From IMG/VR virus record IMGVR_UViG_3300028794_000198, positions 1-64,000 of that record: a stretch of DNA of 64,000 nt. One strand, written 5' to 3'. The DNA is from a virus. Each line of letters begins with the position of its first letter. Within the stretch, counting starts at the first letter, position 1. The notes below the pieces were generated by a model that was given only the letters and a program-made list of their open reading frames with translations, was not told the DNA's origin and did no database searches. Positions 1,793-61,454 of this stretch are shown here, piece after piece. Both the position numbers and the translations under genes were made by a program.

Positions 1793-2836
1793 TCACTCCC
1801 CCTCAAGAGCCCGCATTGCTGCGGTGATCTCGTCCTGCATCTTGTATGACGGCGAGCGGTCGAGTGCCCCGGCGGCCCGGTCGTAGCGGCGAGTGGTGCG
1901 CGGGTCGGCGTGCCCCATGGCGTCCTGCACATCCGCGAGGGGGACGCCCTTGCTCAAGAGTGCCGTCGCGTAGGAGTGGCGTAGCGAGTGGGGCGACAGT
2001 TGGTCGGCATGCGGAAGACCTGCGGCCCCGGCAACGCGGCGGACGAGGCGGAAGGCGGCCGGCTCATCCATCGGTTTTCCGGTGTTGGTGACGAACAGCA
2101 GATCCTCGGGCTCCGGTTGGCCCCGCTCCGCGAGAAGCGCCTCCACCGCCTCGACGGCCATGGGCACGAGGGCGAAGCGCTTCTTGTGGTCGCGTTTCGT
2201 GATGAGGTCGATGACGCGGTGCCCCTGGTCGTGACCGAGGGCTCCGACGGGGGCGTTGAGGATCGAACCGATTCGGGCGGCGGTGACGGCGAGCATGACG
2301 AGCAAGGCGTAGGTGCGGGCCGTCTCGTGCTTTCGGGCGTAGGTGAGGAGGGCTGCCAGTTGCGCCGCCGTCATTCCTCGGGTCGGGGAGTCGTCGGCGG
2401 AGACCGAGGGCCGCTCCATGCCGAAGAACGGGTTGCGCTCGGCCGCCTCGGCGCGCACCAGGTAGGCGTACCAGCTTGATGCGGCGGCGAGTCGGCGGGC
2501 CCGGGTGGACTTCGCGAGCTCGGCCTCGGCGAGGGCGGCGGCGTACTGGTCTGCCTGGAGTGGCCGCGCGAGTGCCGGATTAGCTTCGCTGGCCGCGCAC
2601 CAGGCGAGCCACCAGGACGCGTCCTTGGCGTAGGCGGTTCGGCTGTGGAGGGACTTCCGGCGGGCGAGCCAGGTGGCGGTCGCCTCGACGACGTTGGGTG
2701 CGGCGCCGGCGTTGCGGAGGAGCGAGAGGAGGGCGTCTGGCGAAGAAGCGGGCGGGGCGCCCCGGAGGGAGAGCTGCGGGACGGCGGTCGGCTCCAGGAA
2801 CGCGGGCCGTTCGGGCACTGCGGGAAGGTCGGCCAT
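1793..2836 (-). CDS. tyrosine recombinase, XerC/Cre-like (probable resolvase)
   Basis: Catalytic R (TAARIG), K (TKRD), HxxR (HSLRH), H (GHADP) and Y (TRRY); core-binding domain STRARRLAAASSWY; no arm-binding domain apparent. Confidence 0.93.
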   Translation of the reverse strand: MADLPAVPERPAFLEPTAVPQLSLRGAPPASSPDALLSLLRNAGAAPNVVEATATWLARRKSLHSRTAYAKDASWWLAWCAASEANPALARPLQADQYAAALAEAELAKSTRARRLAAASSWYAYLVRAEAAERNPFFGMERPSVSADDSPTRGMTAAQLAALLTYARKHETARTYALLVMLAVTAARIGSILNAPVGALGHDQGHRVIDLITKRDHKKRFALVPMAVEAVEALLAERGQPEPEDLLFVTNTGKPMDEPAAFRLVRRVAGAAGLPHADQLSPHSLRHSYATALLSKGVPLADVQDAMGHADPRTTRRYDRAAGALDRSPSYKMQDEITAAMRALEGE

Positions 2837-2872
2837 CACCACAGGATAACGGTCATTATTCTGTAGTGATGG
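2833..2872. promoter_or_regulatory. loxP/dif-like recombination site
   Basis: CCATCACCACAGGATAA-CGGTCA-TTATTCTGTAGTGATGG: 17-bp inverted arms (15/17 match) around a 6-bp asymmetric spacer, with a dif-type ATAA-N6-TTAT core. Confidence 0.7.
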
Positions 2873-2940: not shown

Positions 2941-2982
2941 GGTTGACGCATGCGCATACCTCTGCCATGGTTGACGCATGCG
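2941..2982 (+). repeat. 14-bp direct repeat GGTTGACGCATGCG (probable operator/promoter)
   Basis: Exact copies at 2941-2954 and 2969-2982; each contains TTGAC and the palindrome CGCATGCG. Confidence 0.75.
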
Positions 2983-3014
2983 GAAAACGTCCGCATCCTT
3001 CCAGGGGGAACGCC

Positions 3015-3509
3015 ATGGCGCGCATCAACGTGTACAGCTACGCAGAGGACGAGTACGACGAGACCACCCTCGCCGGATGGTTCAACCCCGACTCATCCGC
3101 GAAGTTCGACGAGGGCACGGAGTGGGACGGCAACAACCACGTCTCCGTGAACGCCGTCGGCCAGTACGGGCACCAGATGCTCTACCGGACCAAGGGGGGT
3201 CGCTGGGTCCTCTACTTCTGGTCCCAGTACCAGGGCGTCGCCGAGAAGCACGAGTTCATCGACGACAACGCAGCGAAGGACTGGCTGCTCCGCAACAACC
3301 ACGACGGCGCGATCGAGCAGTACTTCGGCAAGCTCGACGAGGAGTCCGGCCCGAGGCTCGGCGGTCGCCCGTCGATCGGCCCCAAGGTCGAGGTCCGGAT
3401 CCCCGAGGAGATCCTGACCCGCGTTGACGCCTTCAAGGGCGACCGCGAGCGGGCCGACGCGCTGCGCGACCTCATCGCCGCCGGGCTCGACGCCCTCGAA
3501 TCCGCCTGA
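3015..3509 (+). CDS. hypothetical protein with C-terminal ribbon-helix-helix (CopG-like) domain
   Basis: GRPSIGPKVEVRIPEEILTRVDAF...RADALRDLIAAGL; RBS AGGGGG. Confidence 0.8.
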   Translation: MARINVYSYAEDEYDETTLAGWFNPDSSAKFDEGTEWDGNNHVSVNAVGQYGHQMLYRTKGGRWVLYFWSQYQGVAEKHEFIDDNAAKDWLLRNNHDGAIEQYFGKLDEESGPRLGGRPSIGPKVEVRIPEEILTRVDAFKGDRERADALRDLIAAGLDALESA

Positions 3510-3604: not shown

Positions 3605-5296
3605 TCAGGCGGCGCGGTTCTCCCACGGCCAAGCCGCGTCGCGGCCAGCCTCCAGGAGCGGGATCATCCTGAAAGCGTGGTCCGTGAGCCCGCCGAAGGT
3701 GTGACGGCCCGCGCTCCCGGACGGCATGGCGCCGGGCTTGTAGCCGGCCATGTTCCACATGTAGACCGGCACGGTCGTCGGTACGAGGTCGTCGATGGCC
3801 GTCTCGCGCATGCCGCCGTAGCGCTCCATGTTGGAGGGGAGCCATCCGGGCCGGGTCTGTTCGTCGGTGACGATGACGATCCGGTTGTGGCGGAGCAGGT
3901 CGAAGTGCTGCTTGATGGCGGACGGGATGTCGGTGCCGTCGTTCCGGCTGTACTTCTCGATGAGCTTGAGGACGCTTCCGCCCTTGGGTACGTCGACGGT
4001 CTTTGAGCTGCCGCCGAACTCGACGAGCGTCGCGTTCTCTGCGCGCATCGCGAGCGCCGACCCGAAGACTGCGGCCTGTTCGGCGAGCGGGATGTCGGAG
4101 GTGTTCGGGGTGGAGAAGCCGTAGCCCGGGAACATCGACGGCGACCGGTCCACCAGGATCAGCGTCCGGCCCGACAGTCTCGGCACGTTGGCCAGCGAGT
4201 GGTTCAGGGCCTGCTCCAGTGCGTGCGCCCACCGCAGTGAGGGAGCGTGCTTGTAGGCGGCCCACCAACGGAACGGGAACATGCGGGACTTCGCCACCTG
4301 CTCTGGGTCGGCGAACCGCGCGCAGATCTGCGCGGCCACCGCGTCAGAGACTCCGGCCTCGTCGAAGTTCCTGAGGTTCCGCGCGAGCGCCATCACGCCC
4401 ATGGATGGGATGACCGCCTCCCAGGCCGCCTTGTCCATCGGCCCCTGAAGCCAGCCGGCCAGCGCCTCCCACGTCATGCCCGCCCGGCTCAGCTCACCGC
4501 TGGCGTCGACGTTCTCCGTGACGAGCTGGCGCCGCTCTTCCAGTGGGAGCGTCATGAGCCGCTGCCGGTTCAGGAGCAGCGGCAGCCTGCCGGGAATCTC
4601 CTCGTCGTTTCCGTGTCGCCGGTCGAGGGCGTGCCGGAAGAGGTGGCCCTGCCACGGCTTGTCGTCTGCGGGTGCGGCGTGGACGAGGTTGAGGACGTCG
4701 CCGAAGCGGTAGCCCTTCGAGTCGGTGTCGTACTTCAGCAGCGAGCGCTCGTTGTACAGGCGCTGTACGGCGTCGGCGATGCCGCGCTTCACCGGCTTGG
4801 GGACCTTGCGGCCGTAGCGGGATGTCCAGTAGCCGAGCAACTCCCCCGGCTCGTCGGGGCGCTGGAGGACGGCGTCGATGACGCGGCGGTTCCAACCGCC
4901 GTTCGTGGACGCGTCAGCCGCGGTCTCGCGATTCCATCCGGCGGGGTCCGTGCCCTTGTCGCCTTCGAGCCGTGCCTTCACGAACTCGGCCGCGCCGACG
5001 ATCGCCGCGGTCCGCATGTTGCCCTCACCGCGCAGCCAGCCGAGCAGGCCAACCGTCCAGGCCGGGTCTTCGACGGCGAGCTGCCGAACGAGCTGCGTGT
5101 ACCGGTCGTCGCGGTCGCCGCCCTTCTCGTAGAACGCGTCCTGGCCAACGAAGTTGGAGACGGCGAGCAGGAAGAGTTCGGAGCGCGCGTCGCGGAGATG
5201 CCCGGTGGCGCCTTCGTGGGTGACGGTCCGCTCCCCGGTGGTGGTCACGGGCGAGTGGACGGCGGAACGAGTCGAGCGCGTGTTGAAGCGAGACAC
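3605..5296 (-). CDS. TROVE-domain Ro60/Rsr-like ribonucleoprotein
   Basis: N-terminal SELFLL...FYE, ALARNLRNF, PFRW, vWA MIDAS motif DRSPS, GTDI and VTDEQ; GTG start after GAGGGG RBS. Confidence 0.95.
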   Translation of the reverse strand: MSRFNTRSTRSAVHSPVTTTGERTVTHEGATGHLRDARSELFLLAVSNFVGQDAFYEKGGDRDDRYTQLVRQLAVEDPAWTVGLLGWLRGEGNMRTAAIVGAAEFVKARLEGDKGTDPAGWNRETAADASTNGGWNRRVIDAVLQRPDEPGELLGYWTSRYGRKVPKPVKRGIADAVQRLYNERSLLKYDTDSKGYRFGDVLNLVHAAPADDKPWQGHLFRHALDRRHGNDEEIPGRLPLLLNRQRLMTLPLEERRQLVTENVDASGELSRAGMTWEALAGWLQGPMDKAAWEAVIPSMGVMALARNLRNFDEAGVSDAVAAQICARFADPEQVAKSRMFPFRWWAAYKHAPSLRWAHALEQALNHSLANVPRLSGRTLILVDRSPSMFPGYGFSTPNTSDIPLAEQAAVFGSALAMRAENATLVEFGGSSKTVDVPKGGSVLKLIEKYSRNDGTDIPSAIKQHFDLLRHNRIVIVTDEQTRPGWLPSNMERYGGMRETAIDDLVPTTVPVYMWNMAGYKPGAMPSGSAGRHTFGGLTDHAFRMIPLLEAGRDAAWPWENRAA

Positions 5297-5334
5297 AAGA
5301 AAGCCCCTCACATGGAGGGGAGGTCCAGCAGTGA

Positions 5335-5477
5335 GGTGCCCGAGATCAAGGTCGGCTGCGGAGACAAAGCGCTCTAGGCCACTGAGCTACCTCCGGTCCG
5401 CTGGACCGGTGGACGGGATTCGAACCCGCGTCTCTCTCTTAGCAGGAGAAGTATCCGCCGCCTGCGCACCGGGCACC
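5335..5477 (-). ncRNA. Y RNA, YrlA-like (tRNA-mimic domain)
   Basis: Terminal stem GGUGCCCG/CGGGCACC encloses a T arm (GCGGG-UUCGAAU-CCCGU), a closed acceptor-like stem and a D arm (GCUC-AGUGGCCUA-GAGC) in permuted order; lies directly upstream of the Ro60 gene. Confidence 0.9.
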
Positions 5478-5489
5478 CCCGATGCTGTG

Positions 5490-5558
5490 CCTCCCGAGAT
5501 CAAAGTCGGGACCGGTGTCACTTTCCAAAGAAGTAACCGGGCCCTGCGCACCGGGAGG
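5490..5558 (-). ncRNA. second, short Y RNA (YrlB-like)
   Basis: Shares CCCGGUGCGCAGG, UACUUCU and CCGAC(C/U)UUGAUCUCGGG with the first Y RNA; terminal stem CCUCCCG/CGGGAGG; no tRNA domain. Confidence 0.8.
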
Positions 5559-5626
5559 TGCATGAAGTTGTGTGACCACCATACCCACATCAACCGGTAA
5601 CACGTCCACCAGATAGAACAACACGC

Positions 5627-5655
5627 CCCACCCTCCTGCCGGAGCAGGGGGTGGG
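5627..5655. terminator. stem-loop between the lysis genes and the Y RNA/Ro60 unit
   Basis: CCCACCCTCCTGC/GCAGGGGGTGGG imperfect inverted repeat. Confidence 0.45.
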
Positions 5656-5815
5656 ACGTTGTCGTCGTGTGCGGGAGCCCATCCCGCAGGTTCGCGGTCC
5701 AGCAGCAACCAGCCTGGAGTGTGCACACCTTCAGCCGGTCACCGATGCTGCCGTTCGGGCAACCAAGGGGAGCGGCCCCAAGGTCCCTCGCCAGACGCGA
5801 GGTATTGAGATCAGG

Positions 5816-6778: not shown

Positions 6779-7129
6779 TCAGGCCGCCAGGTTGAGGTCT
6801 TCGCGGGTGACGCGCGCCGTGACCTGAGTGCGGGACCACAGGCCGATGACGACGGTCACCAGCGACAGCCACAGCGCCTGGTGGTCGGCGTCCAGCTTCA
6901 GCCCGAAGCCGACTGCGGCAGCGACGAGGGCCTGCGCAAGGTTGAACACGGCCGCACCCATGGCGTCATGCGCCATGACGGCGATGGCCAGGGCGACGGC
7001 GCAGGCGGCGACCGTGTTGACGGTGGCCTGCTGTGTCTGGGTGGCGTGGAAGACGTAGGCCGAGCCGAGCTTCACCAGGATGCTGACGAAGGCCAGGACC
7101 GCAGCCGGTTCGCGTCCGAAGATCTTCAT
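6779..7129 (-). CDS. putative holin
   Basis: MKIFGREP... start and ...RTQVTA end; multiple TMs; in the lysis cassette. Confidence 0.7.
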   Translation of the reverse strand: MKIFGREPAAVLAFVSILVKLGSAYVFHATQTQQATVNTVAACAVALAIAVMAHDAMGAAVFNLAQALVAAAVGFGLKLDADHQALWLSLVTVVIGLWSRTQVTARVTREDLNLAA

Positions 7130-7680
7130 GGGGTTCTCGTTTCCTGTTCGGCGAGCCAGCGCCGGACGGTCTGGTTGTGTCTCGCGTCGGCTAGGGCGTT
7201 GTGCTCGGCGCCCTCCTGCTTCGGGAGTGCGTCCCAGGCGATGCCGAGGCGGCGGGCTTCCTGCTGGATGTCGTTGGTGAACATCGGCACCCCGGCCGGG
7301 AGCGCGATCATCGGGCCCCACAACTGGGCGAGCGCGACGTGGTCGTAGGCCCCGTAGTTCGCCCACAGTTCGACGTCCGGTCCGGCCGCGCGGATGAACT
7401 CGGCGACCTCGGAGGCGATCGTCTTCCGGTGCTTCACCCGGTGGTCGGCGTAGTGGAACAGCCAGCGTTTCGGCATGTGGATCCGCTGGTCACCGTGCCC
7501 CTTCGGGAGGCTGGGGACGACGTTCTGCATCAGCCACGGGTGCTTCCGAATGCGGCGGACGGGCATGTCGCGATTGACGGCGTCGTACTCGCGGCCGTCG
7601 TCGCACACCATGCCGATGGAGATCAGCTCGATGGTGCGGCCGTCCTCCAGGAATTCGAGATCGTAGAAGACGTCGGTCAC
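7126..7680 (-). CDS. DEDDh 3'-5' exoribonuclease, Rv2179c/RNase AS (DUF5051)-like
   Basis: FYDLEFLEDGRTIELISIG, WANYGAYDHV, HNALADARH; start and stop overlap both neighbours. Confidence 0.88.
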   Translation of the reverse strand: MTDVFYDLEFLEDGRTIELISIGMVCDDGREYDAVNRDMPVRRIRKHPWLMQNVVPSLPKGHGDQRIHMPKRWLFHYADHRVKHRKTIASEVAEFIRAAGPDVELWANYGAYDHVALAQLWGPMIALPAGVPMFTNDIQQEARRLGIAWDALPKQEGAEHNALADARHNQTVRRWLAEQETRTP

Positions 7681-8546
7681 GCGGCATCGGGCACGTCGAG
7701 GTGGATGACGACCTGGCTGACGGCCGCCTCGATGGCCGCCTTGACCTCGGCGACCAGGGCGGGCACGTCGATCGCGGCATCGACCTTGCCGATCGCCGTG
7801 GCGAGCGCGGTGAGGGCTGCGGTCTGCGCGGCCTCGGTGGCCACGATCTTCAGGGCGTCGTAGTGGATGTGCGCCAGGTAGTACCCGGCACCGTGGACGA
7901 CCGGGTTGCCCTTCGCGTCCTTCTCCGTCAGCGAGCTGATGGAGAGCAGGTTGTCGTGCAGCGTCTTCAGCTGTGCGGCCTGGTCGGGGGTCATGTCGGT
8001 CTCCTGGGGTGTCGTCTTGCCGGTTGCGCGGGCGACGATGCCCGGGAACACGACGTTCTTGAACTGGGTCACGCGCGCGTCGCCGGGGCAGCTGTGCCCG
8101 TTCGGGTTCCATGAGCCGAACAGACGGTGGTAGCCGTAGCCGGGATCGTCGGCGCTACGGCAGATCCGCAGCGGGATGCCGTGCTGCTCATGCAGCCACG
8201 CGCCGAGCTTGATGAGCGACTCGACCTGCGCAGCCGTCCACGCGTCGGAGGCCTGCAGGTTCGATGCCGACTCCAGCGACACCGCGCCCGTTCCGTCCGC
8301 GCGCCGGTTCGCTGCGGCGTTGGCGTCCGCACGGGTCTCGGTGCCGATGAACTGCCCGAGCGACCCGTCGTACCCGAGGCCGAAGTGGGACTCCAGGTTG
8401 GTCGAGTCGCGCCAGTACTCGTAGGTACGTTGCGGCGTCCACGGGGCGACGATGCTGTGGAGGATGAACTGTGTCGGCCGGATCGCGGGCTGCGCATCCG
8501 ACTCCGGCTGCAGTTCCATCCTCGCGGCACCTGGATACCAGGCCAT
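7677..8546 (-). CDS. endolysin, N-acetylmuramoyl-L-alanine amidase
   Basis: ILHS, ESHF, SLES, GYHR and HSCPG amidase_2 motifs. Confidence 0.88.
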   Translation of the reverse strand: MAWYPGAARMELQPESDAQPAIRPTQFILHSIVAPWTPQRTYEYWRDSTNLESHFGLGYDGSLGQFIGTETRADANAAANRRADGTGAVSLESASNLQASDAWTAAQVESLIKLGAWLHEQHGIPLRICRSADDPGYGYHRLFGSWNPNGHSCPGDARVTQFKNVVFPGIVARATGKTTPQETDMTPDQAAQLKTLHDNLLSISSLTEKDAKGNPVVHGAGYYLAHIHYDALKIVATEAAQTAALTALATAIGKVDAAIDVPALVAEVKAAIEAAVSQVVIHLDVPDAA

Positions 8547-8614
8547 GGGCCCCCCTTGTCTGGGCATGAAAAAAGGCCCGGCCATCGGCTCGGGCGGGCG
8601 GGTGTTGCGGCCGG

Positions 8615-9208
8615 TCAGGTGGTGATGAGGAATCCGACGTGCAGCCGCAGGTTGGTGGCGTTGCCGATGTCTTCGGAGGCGGTGCGCAGGGTGCAGAGGC
8701 CGTCGGTTCCGACGACCCATCCGCCGTGCACGATTCCGGTGTCGAAGCAGGAGGTGATCGTGTCGTGGGTGGGTCGCCAGCCGGACGGCAGAGTGCAGCA
8801 GACGGTGTCGGCGATGTTGCCGCCGGTGGCGACGATGTTGCTGCCGGTGCGGGTCAGGAAGACGTCGATGGTGACGCTGCGGCCTTGCCGGAACCCGAAG
8901 AAGTCCTGGAGGCTGAAGCCGCTCGCGGCGGTCAGGCCGCTGGTGGTGCTGGTCAGGGACGGCTGAGGGGTCACCCAGCCGCTGCCGTCGTACACCTCCA
9001 GACGGTCCACATCCTGCAGCCAGGTCGCCATGCCGTCGACGGGCGCCGACGTTCCCGTGAGTGTGGCGCCGCGCGCGGACGCGGACGCGAACCGCATCAC
9101 CGAGCGCTGAGCAACCCCGTTGGCGATGTTCTTGGCCAGGACTTCGGCGTTGGGCGCATCGGCCAGCGAGGCGATGCTGACGCCCTGCCCGTAGTCATCG
9201 GTGGACAT
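8615..9208 (-). CDS. minor tail protein
   Basis: MRFASASAR...GMATWLQD...LPSGWRP motifs typical of tail-tip proteins; position. Confidence 0.75.
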   Translation of the reverse strand: MSTDDYGQGVSIASLADAPNAEVLAKNIANGVAQRSVMRFASASARGATLTGTSAPVDGMATWLQDVDRLEVYDGSGWVTPQPSLTSTTSGLTAASGFSLQDFFGFRQGRSVTIDVFLTRTGSNIVATGGNIADTVCCTLPSGWRPTHDTITSCFDTGIVHGGWVVGTDGLCTLRTASEDIGNATNLRLHVGFLITT

Positions 9209-60460: not shown

Positions 60461-60772
60461 GTGCGTGCGTGCGCGAGGCGGAAGCGGCAGGCGGGCAAGC
60501 CTGTCGATCATCGACGACGACCACATTTCAACGAGAGGTTCACTGTGGGACTGACGAAGGAGCAGATCGGCAGGCTCGAAGCCGACACCAGGATCGACGG
60601 GTCGGACCGCCGGCTGCTGATGTCGCTGTGCGACTACGACCCGGGGGACGGCTCGGACGACAGTGGATGGGGCGGACTCCGGGTGATGTTCCGAAAGCTG
60701 GAGGCCGCCGGATACCTGACGATCGACGGACTCCACGTTCACGTCCGAGTACTTGAAACGGAGGCGCGATGA
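60461..60772 (+). CDS. small wHTH-like protein
   Basis: FRKLEAAGYL; start uncertain. Confidence 0.45.
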   Translation: MRACARRKRQAGKPVDHRRRPHFNERFTVGLTKEQIGRLEADTRIDGSDRRLLMSLCDYDPGDGSDDSGWGGLRVMFRKLEAAGYLTIDGLHVHVRVLETEAR

Positions 60773-61074
60773 GCAACATCCCGTACACCCACTGGTCGTA
60801 CTTCCCAGACGAGGCCACCGCGCGCCGCTGCGCCCAGGATCTCGCCGACTACATAACCCGCGTCCGTGAGCCGCTGCCGGACAGCACCGACTGGCTGCTG
60901 CTGGCGGGCCGGGACGTCAGCATCGACCACCTCGTAGCGCGCCACCGGGAGGTCGCCGCGATCGTCGAGCGGCACGGCGGCCGGTACGACGGCGGGGAGG
61001 CGGCCTACCTCGGAACGGGCCGGCCGGTCGCGGACCCGATGCTGATCGAGGACGACGACGGGGCCACTACGTGA
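60769..61074 (+). CDS. RraB-like (regulator of ribonuclease activity B) domain protein
   Basis: H.SYFPDEA.A..C...W.L...HGGRYDG. Confidence 0.6.
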   Translation: MSNIPYTHWSYFPDEATARRCAQDLADYITRVREPLPDSTDWLLLAGRDVSIDHLVARHREVAAIVERHGGRYDGGEAAYLGTGRPVADPMLIEDDDGATT

Positions 61075-61454
61075 TCGCCGCCGCGGTCATCACCCACGCG
61101 GCCCGCGTCCTCCTCATCCGCCGCACAACCCCGGAGGCCGCCCTTCTGTGGTCGTTCCCTGCGGGCAAGCTGCACCCCGACGAGTCCCCTGTCGAGGCCG
61201 CTGTCCGCGAGGCCCTGGAAGAGGCGGGCGTGACGGTGGCCCCGCTCCAACTGCTGGGTGAGCGCACGCATCCGGTGACGGGCCTACGCGTCGTCTACAT
61301 CGCCTGCGAGCTGGTCGGTGGCACGGCGCATGCGGCGTCGCCTCGCGAGGTGGCAGAAGTCCGCTGGGCGCGCCTCAGTGAGCTGCCAGGGCTGATCCCT
61401 GGCGGCATCTACGCACCGGTGCAGGCCTTCCTCGAAGGAGTCCTACCGCCGTAG
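61071..61454 (+). CDS. NUDIX hydrolase (Pif-like context)
   Basis: Intact Nudix box GKLHPDESPVEAAVREALEEAG. Confidence 0.92.
   Translation: MIAAAVITHAARVLLIRRTTPEAALLWSFPAGKLHPDESPVEAAVREALEEAGVTVAPLQLLGERTHPVTGLRVVYIACELVGGTAHAASPREVAEVRWARLSELPGLIPGGIYAPVQAFLEGVLPP

What the first reader, a model, noticed from the sequence alone, without database searches (positions are those of the whole stretch)
3605..5558. Phage-encoded Ro60 ribonucleoprotein unit with two Y RNAs
Seen: a full-length TROVE/vWA protein preceded on the same strand by two structured RNAs that share the same terminal-stem sequences (CCCGGUGCGCAGG ... UACUUCU ... CCGACYUUGAUCUCGGG). One is 143 nt with a tRNA-like domain, the other about 69 nt without. 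Known: bacterial Rsr binds YrlA/YrlB RNAs, is tethered to PNPase in Deinococcus, and often sits with rtcB; Ro/Y RNA genes have been reported in some phages. No rtcB/rtcA is adjacent here. Inference: a moron that remodels RNA decay or repair, or counters tRNA-targeting defence, with two interchangeable RNA partners.
Basis: partly seen in the sequence, partly recalled or inferred. Interest (0 to 1): 0.85.

Follow-up and report, generated by a model that had tools for sequence, protein, structure and literature searches.

The report
Prophage Ro60 gene with two Y RNAs
A Streptomyces-type prophage carries its own copy of the ring-shaped RNA-binding protein Ro60 preceded by two small partner "Y RNAs", one of them a tRNA look-alike; it is real and well conserved, but it is a further example of a protein-RNA module already described in bacteria and phages.

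Summary
A 69-nt hairpin RNA (5558..5490) and a 143-nt YrlA-type RNA with a tRNA-like domain (5477..5335) lie upstream of a Ro60/Rsr gene (5296..3605).

Both RNAs share the same terminal-stem sequences. The structure shows strong covariation across 28 homologues. The protein model matches every solved Ro60 structure over its full length.

The cassette lies inside a temperate prophage, between the lysis genes and the repressor-like/integrase module. It is conserved in at least 24 related prophages.

This is a known kind:
- YrlA RNAs next to Ro60 were reported in 22 phages (Chen 2014).
- M. smegmatis has YrlA and YrlB upstream of rsr.
- Thermus phage phiLo Ro60 with two upstream Y-like RNAs was solved and shown to bind host PNPase (Hu 2025).
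- This scan has also reported the same Streptomyces-prophage cassette at least seven times on other DNA.

Added here:
- The prophage clade nests within chromosomal Streptomycetaceae rsr genes.
- Four of five lysogens checked also keep a host rsr array, whose short Y RNA has identical terminal stems.
- Rfam's YrlA model misses this whole subfamily.
- The tRNA-like module matches no particular host tRNA.
- An RNase AS-like exoribonuclease lies 1.6 kb upstream.

Function is inferred, not shown.

The parts
5617..5669 (-). G+C-rich hairpin followed by GUUGUUCU; probable terminator ending the upstream lysis/membrane-protein genes and insulating the cassette
   Evidence: Sequence. Terminator-like scan hit 5649-5626. 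The spurious mir-4433 alignment displays the long hairpin. Analogous hairpins stand at the same place in related loci.
5572..5608 (-). Promoter-like region: TGGACG (5608-5603), 19 nt, TATGGT (5583-5578). The inverted repeat GTTACC..GGTCAC (5601-5572) spans the -10 element. Inferred, not shown.
   Evidence: The sequence is conserved in L002, L004, L010 and L018. The inverted repeat is unique in the window. The strict sigma-70 scan found no promoter, so this part is weak.
5490..5558 (-). Short Y RNA (YrlB-like), 69 nt. It has a terminal bulged stem (CCUCCCGG/C-U-CGGGAGG), an internal loop, a second stem, and an apical U-rich hairpin carrying UACUUCUUUGG.
   Evidence: Fold -30.7 kcal/mol, z -2.3. 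Alignment A2 of 24 homologues gives 15 consensus pairs, 6 with compensatory changes. CM R2 scores 80.5 bits, E 3e-14.
5335..5477 (-). YrlA-type Y RNA, 143 nt. The same terminal bulged stem is extended by GGUG/CACC. It then has stem 2, the UACUUC motif, a V hairpin with YUAA, a T-arm (GCGGG-UUCGAAU-CCCGU), a closed acceptor-like hairpin, a D-arm (GCUC-AGUGGCCUA-GAGC) and an anticodon-stem-like closing helix.
   Evidence: Rfam YrlA 25.2 bits, E 0.0043, below gathering score. RNAalifold on 28 homologues. Pair counts: 97% paired, 18/33 pairs compensatory, 0/500 shuffles reach this. The closing helix covaries: AGAG:CUUU, GGGG:CCUU, CCAU:AUGG, CUGA:UCAG, CCGA:UCGG. CM R1 scores 144 bits.
5304..5320 (-). 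Hairpin CCCCUC-CAUGU-GAGGGG followed by CUUUCUU. It is terminator-like after the Y RNAs, and its 3' arm is the Shine-Dalgarno sequence of rsr, 7 nt before GTG 5296.
   Evidence: Terminator-like scan hit. Conserved in nearly all related loci. The role is inferred.
3605..5296 (-). rsr / Ro60 orthologue, 563 aa from GTG 5296 (the longest ORF starts at GTG 5311, 568 aa). It has a TROVE HEAT-repeat ring and a vWA domain with a DxSxS MIDAS motif (VDRSPS).
   Evidence: Pfam TROVE and VWA_2. phrog_850. phmmer against PDB finds only phiLo Ro60 9KOP/9L5Y, E 1.8e-25. AF2 model pLDDT 83.4, pTM 0.82. Foldseek hits over the full length to 9KOP, 1YVP, human Ro60 and 2NVO, E 2e-17 to 2e-12. dN/dS is 0.18-0.36 against relatives.

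Best explanation
This is a self-contained Ro60-Y RNA ribonucleoprotein cassette carried as accessory cargo by a temperate Streptomyces-type phage.

Order on the minus strand:
- a terminator-like hairpin closing the lysis genes,
- a promoter-like region,
- a 69-nt YrlB-like hairpin RNA,
- a 143-nt YrlA-type RNA with a tRNA-like domain,
- a hairpin that contains the ribosome-binding site,
- rsr.

Shown here: the protein has the Ro60 ring fold. Both RNAs carry the same conserved, covarying terminal bulged stem. That stem holds CGGU where more distant relatives have the canonical CGAA Ro-binding motif.

Inferred from the characterised D. radiodurans, S. Typhimurium, M. smegmatis and Thermus phage phiLo systems:
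- The RNAs are cut out of one transcript.
- Each binds the outer face of the Ro ring through the terminal stem.
- The variable upper part of the RNA (the tRNA-like module in one, a U-rich hairpin in the other) recruits or gates partners. The most likely partner is the host 3'-5' exoribonuclease PNPase.
- The phage would thereby change which structured RNAs are degraded or spared in the infected or lysogenic cell.

The direction of the effect (stimulating decay of structured RNA, or damping PNPase as in phiLo) and the timing (lysogeny or lytic growth) are not known.

The cassette looks like a shortened copy (B-A-rsr) of the host chromosomal array (A-B-A-rsr).
For: - Identity of the protein.
- Identity and structure of the RNAs.
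- Conserved position directly upstream of rsr on the same strand in 82 loci.
- Prophage context.
- The CGAA motif stands at the homologous position in L027 and L028 (alignments).
- Purifying selection on rsr.
- The phage clade of 24 nests among chromosomal Streptomycetaceae rsr genes.
- Four of five lysogens also have a chromosomal rsr (63-64% identity) preceded by an A-B-A array, whose B unit has identical terminal stems.
- The hosts encode PNPase.
- Published mechanism for relatives: Chen 2014 (PMC4201824) and Hu 2025 (PMC12135203).
Against: - There is no expression or binding data for this locus. No RNA run holds it.
- The Rfam YrlA gathering score is not reached (25 against 69 bits).
- The Ro-binding motif reads CGGU, not CGAA. 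In phiLo each CGAA nucleotide mattered three- to four-fold for binding.
- The promoter is only weakly predicted.
- The PNPase partnership is extrapolated from distant systems.
- The classification of loci as 'chromosomal' rests on three annotated loci plus conserved synteny groups, and the tree is FastTree only.
Confidence: 0.8

Rival explanations
1. PNPase damping. As reported for Thermus phage phiLo, the phage Ro-Y RNA complex binds host PNPase and slows it. This would protect phage transcripts or disturb host RNA processing, rather than specialising PNPase for structured-RNA decay. This is a variant of the main reading with the opposite sign.
For: The closest solved relative is phiLo Ro60. 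In vitro its complexes with Yrl1 or Yrl2 cut PNPase activity by about 70-76%. The hosts encode PNPase.
Against: Sequence identity to phiLo Ro60 is only about 24%. The phiLo host lacks its own Ro60, whereas most lysogens here have one. In D. radiodurans the complex stimulates decay of structured RNA (abstract of PMC4201824).
Confidence: 0.3
2. Counter-defence decoy. The tRNA-like Y RNA, held by Ro, soaks up or mis-directs host anticodon nucleases or other tRNA-targeting defence enzymes.
For: The YrlA module contains T-, D-, acceptor- and anticodon-stem-like elements. The module types differ among otherwise close cassettes.
Against: No module matches one particular host tRNA. Only generic T- and D-arm similarity was found to the 62 tRNAs of a related lysogen. 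The anticodon loop is replaced by the Y stem. The host's own chromosomal arrays carry the same kinds of module. No RNA ligase or cyclase is present on the provirus.
Confidence: 0.08
3. Cis-acting leader. The two structured elements act mainly as Ro-binding sites in the 5' leader of the rsr mRNA (autoregulation), not as stable stand-alone RNAs.
For: They lie on the same strand directly upstream. The only terminator-like hairpin between them and rsr also holds the ribosome-binding site. In M. smegmatis the Y RNAs come from one precursor.
Against: In every characterised system the equivalent units accumulate as discrete Ro-bound RNAs. The unit boundaries are sharply conserved terminal helices with conserved linkers. 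Unit numbers vary from 2 to 5.
Confidence: 0.07
4. Neutral passenger. A piece of host chromosome was picked up by imprecise excision and has no role for the phage.
For: The phage clade nests within host rsr genes, and the cassette lies near the prophage end.
Against: It is retained intact in at least 24 diverged prophages. dN/dS is 0.18-0.36. The RNAs are highly conserved. The phage copies have promoter regions unlike each other and unlike the host's.
Confidence: 0.05

Closest known systems
Mycobacterium smegmatis rsr locus with YrlA and YrlB, and mycobacteriophage YrlA RNAs (Chen et al. 2014, RNA 20:1715, PMC4201824)
   Same: - An actinobacterial Ro60 orthologue with two Y RNAs upstream on the same strand, from one precursor.
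- One RNA has a permuted tRNA-like domain (V, T, closed acceptor, D). The other is a long hairpin with a pyrimidine-rich loop.
- Phage-borne versions were reported: 22 phages.
   Different: - The order here is short RNA first, then YrlA.
- The Ro-binding motif reads CGGU instead of GNCGAA.
- Rfam's YrlA model does not reach its threshold.
- The cassette sits in a temperate Streptomyces-type prophage and seems derived from the host's own three-RNA array.
Thermus phage phiLo Ro60 with Yrl1 and Yrl2 (Hu et al. 2025, NAR 53:gkaf470, PMC12135203; PDB 9KOP, 9L5Y)
   Same: - A phage-encoded Ro60 with two Y-like RNAs directly upstream.
- It is the best sequence and fold match in the PDB.
- The RNAs have a stem-bulge-stem layout.
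- No PNPase is encoded on the phage, but the host has one.
   Different: - Identity is about 24%.
- The phiLo RNAs have the CGAA motif and no described tRNA-like domain.
- The phiLo host has no Ro60 of its own, whereas 4 of 5 lysogens checked here do.
- No biochemistry exists for this locus.
Deinococcus radiodurans Rsr-Yrn1-PNPase (RYPER) and Salmonella Typhimurium rsr-yrlBA-rtcBA operon
   Same: A Ro60 ring plus a Y RNA with a tRNA-like module and a second, simpler Y RNA. The fold matches 2NVO.
   Different: No rtcB or rtcA is linked here. No sigma-54/RtcR control is evident. The carrier is a phage.

Membership tests
Ro60 / Rsr (TROVE + vWA ring protein) | [quoted passage not shown] | tested here: met
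   Pfam TROVE 46.6 bits (cut-off 23). VWA_2 scores 24.5 bits, just under its 27-bit cut-off, E 4.4e-5. phrog_850 E 2.4e-44.
Ro60 / Rsr (TROVE + vWA ring protein) | Full-length HEAT-repeat ring plus vWA fold, as in the solved Ro60 structures | tested here: met
   AF2 model pLDDT 83.4, pTM 0.82. Foldseek hits to 9KOP, 9L5Y, 1YVP, human Ro60 and 2NVO at E 2e-17 to 2e-12, TM 0.60-0.74, over about 540-585 alignment columns.
Ro60 / Rsr (TROVE + vWA ring protein) | MIDAS motif DxSxS in the vWA domain | tested here: met
   VDRSPS is aligned to the phiLo motif VDVSGS. D383, S385 and S387 are invariant in 42 homologues.
Ro60 / Rsr (TROVE + vWA ring protein) | Binds Y RNA in vivo or in vitro | not testable with these tools
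   Needs a gel-shift assay or immunoprecipitation.
YrlA (Rfam RF02553) | Reaches the Rfam gathering score (69 bits) | tested here: not met
   25.2 bits, E 0.0043 in a 600-nt search. No hit at gathering score in the window, nor in 15 related loci.
YrlA (Rfam RF02553) | Encoded within 4 kb of a Ro60 orthologue on the same strand (criterion of Chen 2014) | tested here: met
   It ends 39 nt upstream of the rsr start codon on the same strand. The same holds in 82 related loci.
YrlA (Rfam RF02553) | tRNA-like domain: T-arm, closed acceptor-like stem-loop, D-arm in that order, with a V region beginning YUAY | tested here: met
   The RNAalifold consensus contains the T, acceptor-like and D helices, with 100%, 94.6% and 100% of cells paired and compensatory changes. 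CUAA/UUAA stands before the closing helix.
YrlA (Rfam RF02553) | GNCGAAN0-1G motif near the 5' end | tested here: not met
   The window reads CCCGGUGCG. The aligned position in the divergent relatives L027 and L028 reads CCCGAAGCG / CCCGAAGUG. It is therefore a positional equivalent with two changed bases.
YrlB-type second Y RNA | [quoted passage not shown] | tested here: met
   Shared 27-nt and 28-nt blocks. The fold is a long interrupted hairpin with an apical CUUCUUUGG. There is no sequence family to test against.
Prophage accessory gene ('moron') | Lies inside the prophage, outside the core modules, with its own promoter and terminator | tested here: inconclusive
   The position between the lysis genes and the repressor-like/integrase module is shown. 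The flanking hairpins are shown. The promoter is only a weak consensus match, and expression in lysogeny was not tested.

The most novel reading that the evidence does not exclude
The prophage cassette is a captured, shortened copy of the host's own rsr-Y RNA array, and its Y RNAs keep host-identical Ro-binding stems. Phage Ro and phage Y RNAs could therefore mix with, or compete with, the resident host Rsr system. Together with the phage's RNase AS-like 3'-5' exoribonuclease in the lysis cassette, an RraB-like protein and a NUDIX hydrolase, this would form a phage toolkit for taking over host RNA decay.
Probability: 0.2. Interest if true: 0.55.

Novelty: new member of a known kind. Interest (0 to 1): 0.3.

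Why it matters
Ro60-Y RNA particles are conserved from bacteria to humans, yet what they do for a phage is still open. The only biochemical study of a phage system (phiLo, 2025) used a host that has no Ro60 of its own.

These Streptomyces prophages offer a natural case in which a phage copy and a host copy share Y RNA binding sites in one cell. Culturable lysogens are available, for example S. griseoflavus JCM 4479. That makes cross-talk and the effect on PNPase testable.

There is also a practical point. The Rfam YrlA model misses this whole Streptomycetaceae subfamily, and tRNA finders miscall it as tRNA-Ser, so annotation pipelines will mislabel these loci.

As a discovery it is ordinary: the kind is known, and this scan has already reported the same cassette on other DNA.

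Tried and rejected
- **Specific tRNA mimicry.** I fetched all 75 tRNA genes (62 distinct) of a lysogen carrying the closest relative. I aligned both halves of every YrlA module type to them. Only generic T- and D-arm matches appeared, with no consistent identity. Rejected.
- **ARAGORN 'tRNA-Ser(gct)' at 5472..5402.** The acceptor pairing it uses (CCGGUG/CACCGG) is not conserved in other module types. Rejected as a tRNA gene.
- **A general phage operator.** I tested whether the inverted repeat over the -10 element (GTTACC..GGTCAC) recurs elsewhere. It occurs only once in the window, so no regulator could be assigned.
- **RNA-seq support.** No RNA holder is listed. Only DNA metagenomes appear, and the single full holder is probably the source sample.
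- **Rfam at gathering score.** Nothing in the window or in 15 relatives.
- **Literature on Streptomyces Y RNAs.** No paper holds 'Streptomyces', 'Y RNA' and 'Ro60' together. Two reviews (PMC10870794, PMC6047535) and the supplements of Chen 2014 are not held. I therefore could not check whether Streptomyces loci were in their list of 254 species.
- **PafBC promoter motif.** The paper I read does not print the RecA-NDp motif. That lead stays unverified.
- **First ORF picks.** In some high-GC loci the first ORF pick was off-frame. I redid it by tblastn. L027, L029, L030, L069, L077, L081 and L082 were left out of the tree as partial, frameshifted or lacking the N-terminal motif.
Full report
**What is there**

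The feature lies on the minus strand of a 68% G+C window. The window is the first 64 kb of a 90,048-bp IMG/VR provirus record that is rated complete. Reading 5' to 3' on the minus strand:

- A long G+C-rich hairpin with a U-containing tail (5669..5617).
- A promoter-like stretch (TGGACG, 19 nt, TATGGT; 5608..5578).
- A 69-nt RNA (5558..5490) and a 12-nt linker.
- A 143-nt RNA (5477..5335).
- A short hairpin, CCCCUC-CAUGU-GAGGGG, followed by CUUUCUU (5320..5304).
- An ORF that runs to 3605.

The longest ORF starts at GTG 5311. Most homologues have ATG five codons further in, and GAGGGG sits 7 nt before that codon. I therefore take GTG 5296 as the start, giving 563 aa.

**The protein**

- Pfam finds TROVE and, just under its cut-off, VWA_2.
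- PHROGs finds phrog_850 'RNA-binding protein' over the whole length.
- phmmer against all PDB sequences finds only the Ro60 of Thermus phage phiLo (9KOP/9L5Y, E 1.8e-25). The MIDAS DxSxS motif aligns.
- An AlphaFold2 model built on 42 homologues has pLDDT 83.4 and pTM 0.82.
- The model matches phiLo Ro60, Xenopus and human Ro60 and D. radiodurans Rsr over their full length. E-values run from 2e-17 to 2e-12 and TM-scores from 0.60 to 0.74. After these, only isolated vWA domains score.

It is a Ro60/Rsr orthologue.

**The RNAs**

The two units share a 27-nt 5' block (85% identity) and a 28-nt 3' block (79% identity). The exact 13-mer CCCGGTGCGCAGG occurs nowhere else in the window.

The terminal blocks pair into a helix with a bulged U and an internal loop. 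The helix is extended by CCU/AGG in the short RNA and by GGUG/CACC in the long one.

The long RNA is a top Rfam match to YrlA in E-value mode, but at 25 bits it is far below the gathering score of 69. ARAGORN miscalls part of it as tRNA-Ser.

*Conservation in other loci*

- I fetched 29 viral and 53 genomic loci that encode relatives of the protein, at 36-83% identity.
- In the great majority, the same units stand directly upstream of the gene on the same strand. A few truncated or divergent loci gave no hit.
- The number of units ranges from 2 to 5. L027 has five, and L028 has two short ones only.

*Structure of the long RNA*

- RNAalifold on 28 distinct long units predicts the YrlA layout unaided. 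It finds the terminal stem, stem 2, the T-arm, a closed acceptor-like hairpin and the D-arm.
- On that structure 97% of cells pair, against 83.5% in shuffles and 35-48% in slid controls. Eighteen of 33 pairs show compensatory changes.
- The anticodon-stem-like closing helix was missed by the alignment, but it covaries clearly: AGAG:CUUU, GGGG:CCUU, CCAU:AUGG, CUGA:UCAG and CCGA:UCGG.
- The hairpin with a CUGCUAA loop before the T-arm corresponds to the 'V' element and YUAY motif of Chen et al..

*The short RNA and the binding motif*

- The short unit gives 15 consensus pairs, 6 of them with compensatory changes.
- The published Ro-binding motif GNCGAA is not present as such. The window has CCCGGUGCG where the divergent relatives L027 and L028 have CCCGAAGCG or CCCGAAGUG at the aligned position.

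**Context**

*Neighbouring genes*

- Downstream of rsr lie a convergent repressor-like gene (2943-3509) and a tyrosine integrase (2842..1793).
- Upstream lie small membrane-protein genes, an endolysin amidase (8720..7677), tail genes and a 1568-aa tape-measure-size gene.

The cassette is therefore inside a temperate prophage, in the accessory zone between lysis and integration.

*Other RNA-metabolism genes on the provirus*

I confirmed that it is an Rv2179c/RNase AS-like 3'-5' exoribonuclease (PF16473, 52 bits).
- Homologues of that gene lie within 3 kb upstream of the cassette in nine related viral loci. This may be shared backbone rather than a functional link.
- An RraB-like gene and a NUDIX gene lie at 60.8-61.5 kb.
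- No RtcB or RtcA is encoded in the 90-kb record.

**Origin**

- On a FastTree of 73 Ro proteins rooted on a Dactylosporangium sequence, the window falls in a clade of 24 sequences. All 24 come from viral records or have phage-type neighbours (local support 94).
- That clade nests among Streptomycetaceae sequences with no phage neighbours.
- Three of those non-phage loci were annotated. They sit among ordinary chromosomal genes such as an acyl-CoA dehydrogenase, an MFS transporter, a PPTase and a LuxR regulator. Others form conserved synteny groups across species.
- In four of five lysogens with a prophage-type gene (78-83% identity) there is a second, chromosomal rsr at 63-64% identity.
- That chromosomal gene is preceded by a long-short-long array. 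Its short unit has the same terminal stems as the window's short RNA.
- rsr is under purifying selection, with dN/dS 0.18-0.36.
- The long RNA is 97% identical in L004 and L009, although their rsr genes are only 81% identical at the DNA level. Other close cassettes carry quite different tRNA-like modules. The modules therefore look shuffled.

**How it probably works**

By analogy with the characterised systems, both RNAs would be processed from one transcript and bind Ro through the shared stem. The upper parts would recruit or gate partners, most likely host PNPase, which the hosts encode.

In D. radiodurans this tethering specialises PNPase for structured RNA. In phiLo the complex slows PNPase in vitro by about 70-76%. 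Which applies here, and whether the cassette acts in lysogeny or during lytic growth, cannot be told from sequence.

The hairpin that holds the ribosome-binding site suggests partial termination after the RNAs and restrained translation of rsr. That is an inference.

The tRNA-decoy idea got no support. The module types match only generic tRNA features.

**Comparison and verdict**

- YrlA RNAs next to Ro60 were reported in 254 bacteria and 22 phages.
- M. smegmatis has YrlA and YrlB upstream of rsr on one precursor (Chen 2014).
- A phage Ro60 with two upstream Y-like RNAs has been solved and tied to PNPase (Hu 2025).
- This scan has already followed up the same Streptomyces-prophage cassette on at least seven other genomes and reached the same verdict.

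The finding is real and cleanly documented, but it is a new member of a known kind. The modest additions are:

- the apparent host origin of the cassette;
- the co-residence of a host paralogue with identical Y RNA stems;
- the CGGU variant of the binding motif;
- the failure of the Rfam model on this subfamily;
- the neighbouring RNA-decay genes.

Noticed in passing
window 7126-7680 (-): An Rv2179c/RNase AS-like 3'-5' exoribonuclease gene (PF16473, 52 bits) lies between the endolysin and the membrane-protein genes. Homologues lie within 3 kb upstream of the Ro cassette in nine related viral loci: L002, L003, L007, L009, L010, L014, L017, L018 and L019.
   Followed up: partly
window 60769-61454 (+): An RraB-like gene (PF06877, 29.9 bits) is directly followed, with a 4-nt overlap, by a NUDIX hydrolase gene (75.5 bits). 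These are further RNA-metabolism candidates on the same prophage.
   Followed up: partly
window 5402-5472 (-): ARAGORN calls a tRNA-Ser(gct) inside the YrlA-type RNA. The call uses a V hairpin with a canonical-looking 7-nt loop (CUGCUAA) and a CCGGUG/CACCGG pairing followed by U-CCA. Only this module type (window, L004, L009, L013, L022) has the internal UCCA.
   Followed up: partly
L027:2250-2960: A divergent viral locus (44% identity) carries an array of five Y-RNA-like units before rsr. The units have the canonical CGAA motif in the terminal stem. L028 has two short units and no tRNA-like one. In L018 the long unit keeps only a T-arm-like hairpin.
   Followed up: partly
L012, L021, L023, L024, about 60-100 nt upstream of the first Y RNA: These cassettes have a different promoter region, TTGTCACCC-N8-TACAGT. 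From memory it resembles the mycobacterial RecA-independent DNA-damage promoter (the PafBC motif). The paper I read does not print the motif, so this is unverified. The window's own promoter region does not look like it.
   Followed up: no
L139-L142 (chromosomal rsr loci of lysogens G002-G005): The host chromosomal rsr genes are preceded by three Y RNAs (long, short, long). The first long unit has CCAGG...CUCUGG terminal stems instead of CCCGG...CUCGGG.
   Followed up: partly
L073 (CAZYSQ010000001.1): A contig labelled 'uncultured Acholeplasmataceae' carries a Ro gene 62% identical to the window's, with Y RNA units and an integrase-like match. A Streptomyces-type cassette does not fit that label, so the contig is probably mis-binned.
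   Followed up: no
window 5572-5601 (-): The inverted repeat GTTACC-N18-GGTCAC spans the -10-like hexamer of the cassette and is unique in the window. It is conserved as GTTACC..GGTAAC in L002 and L018. It is a candidate operator with no assigned regulator.
   Followed up: partly
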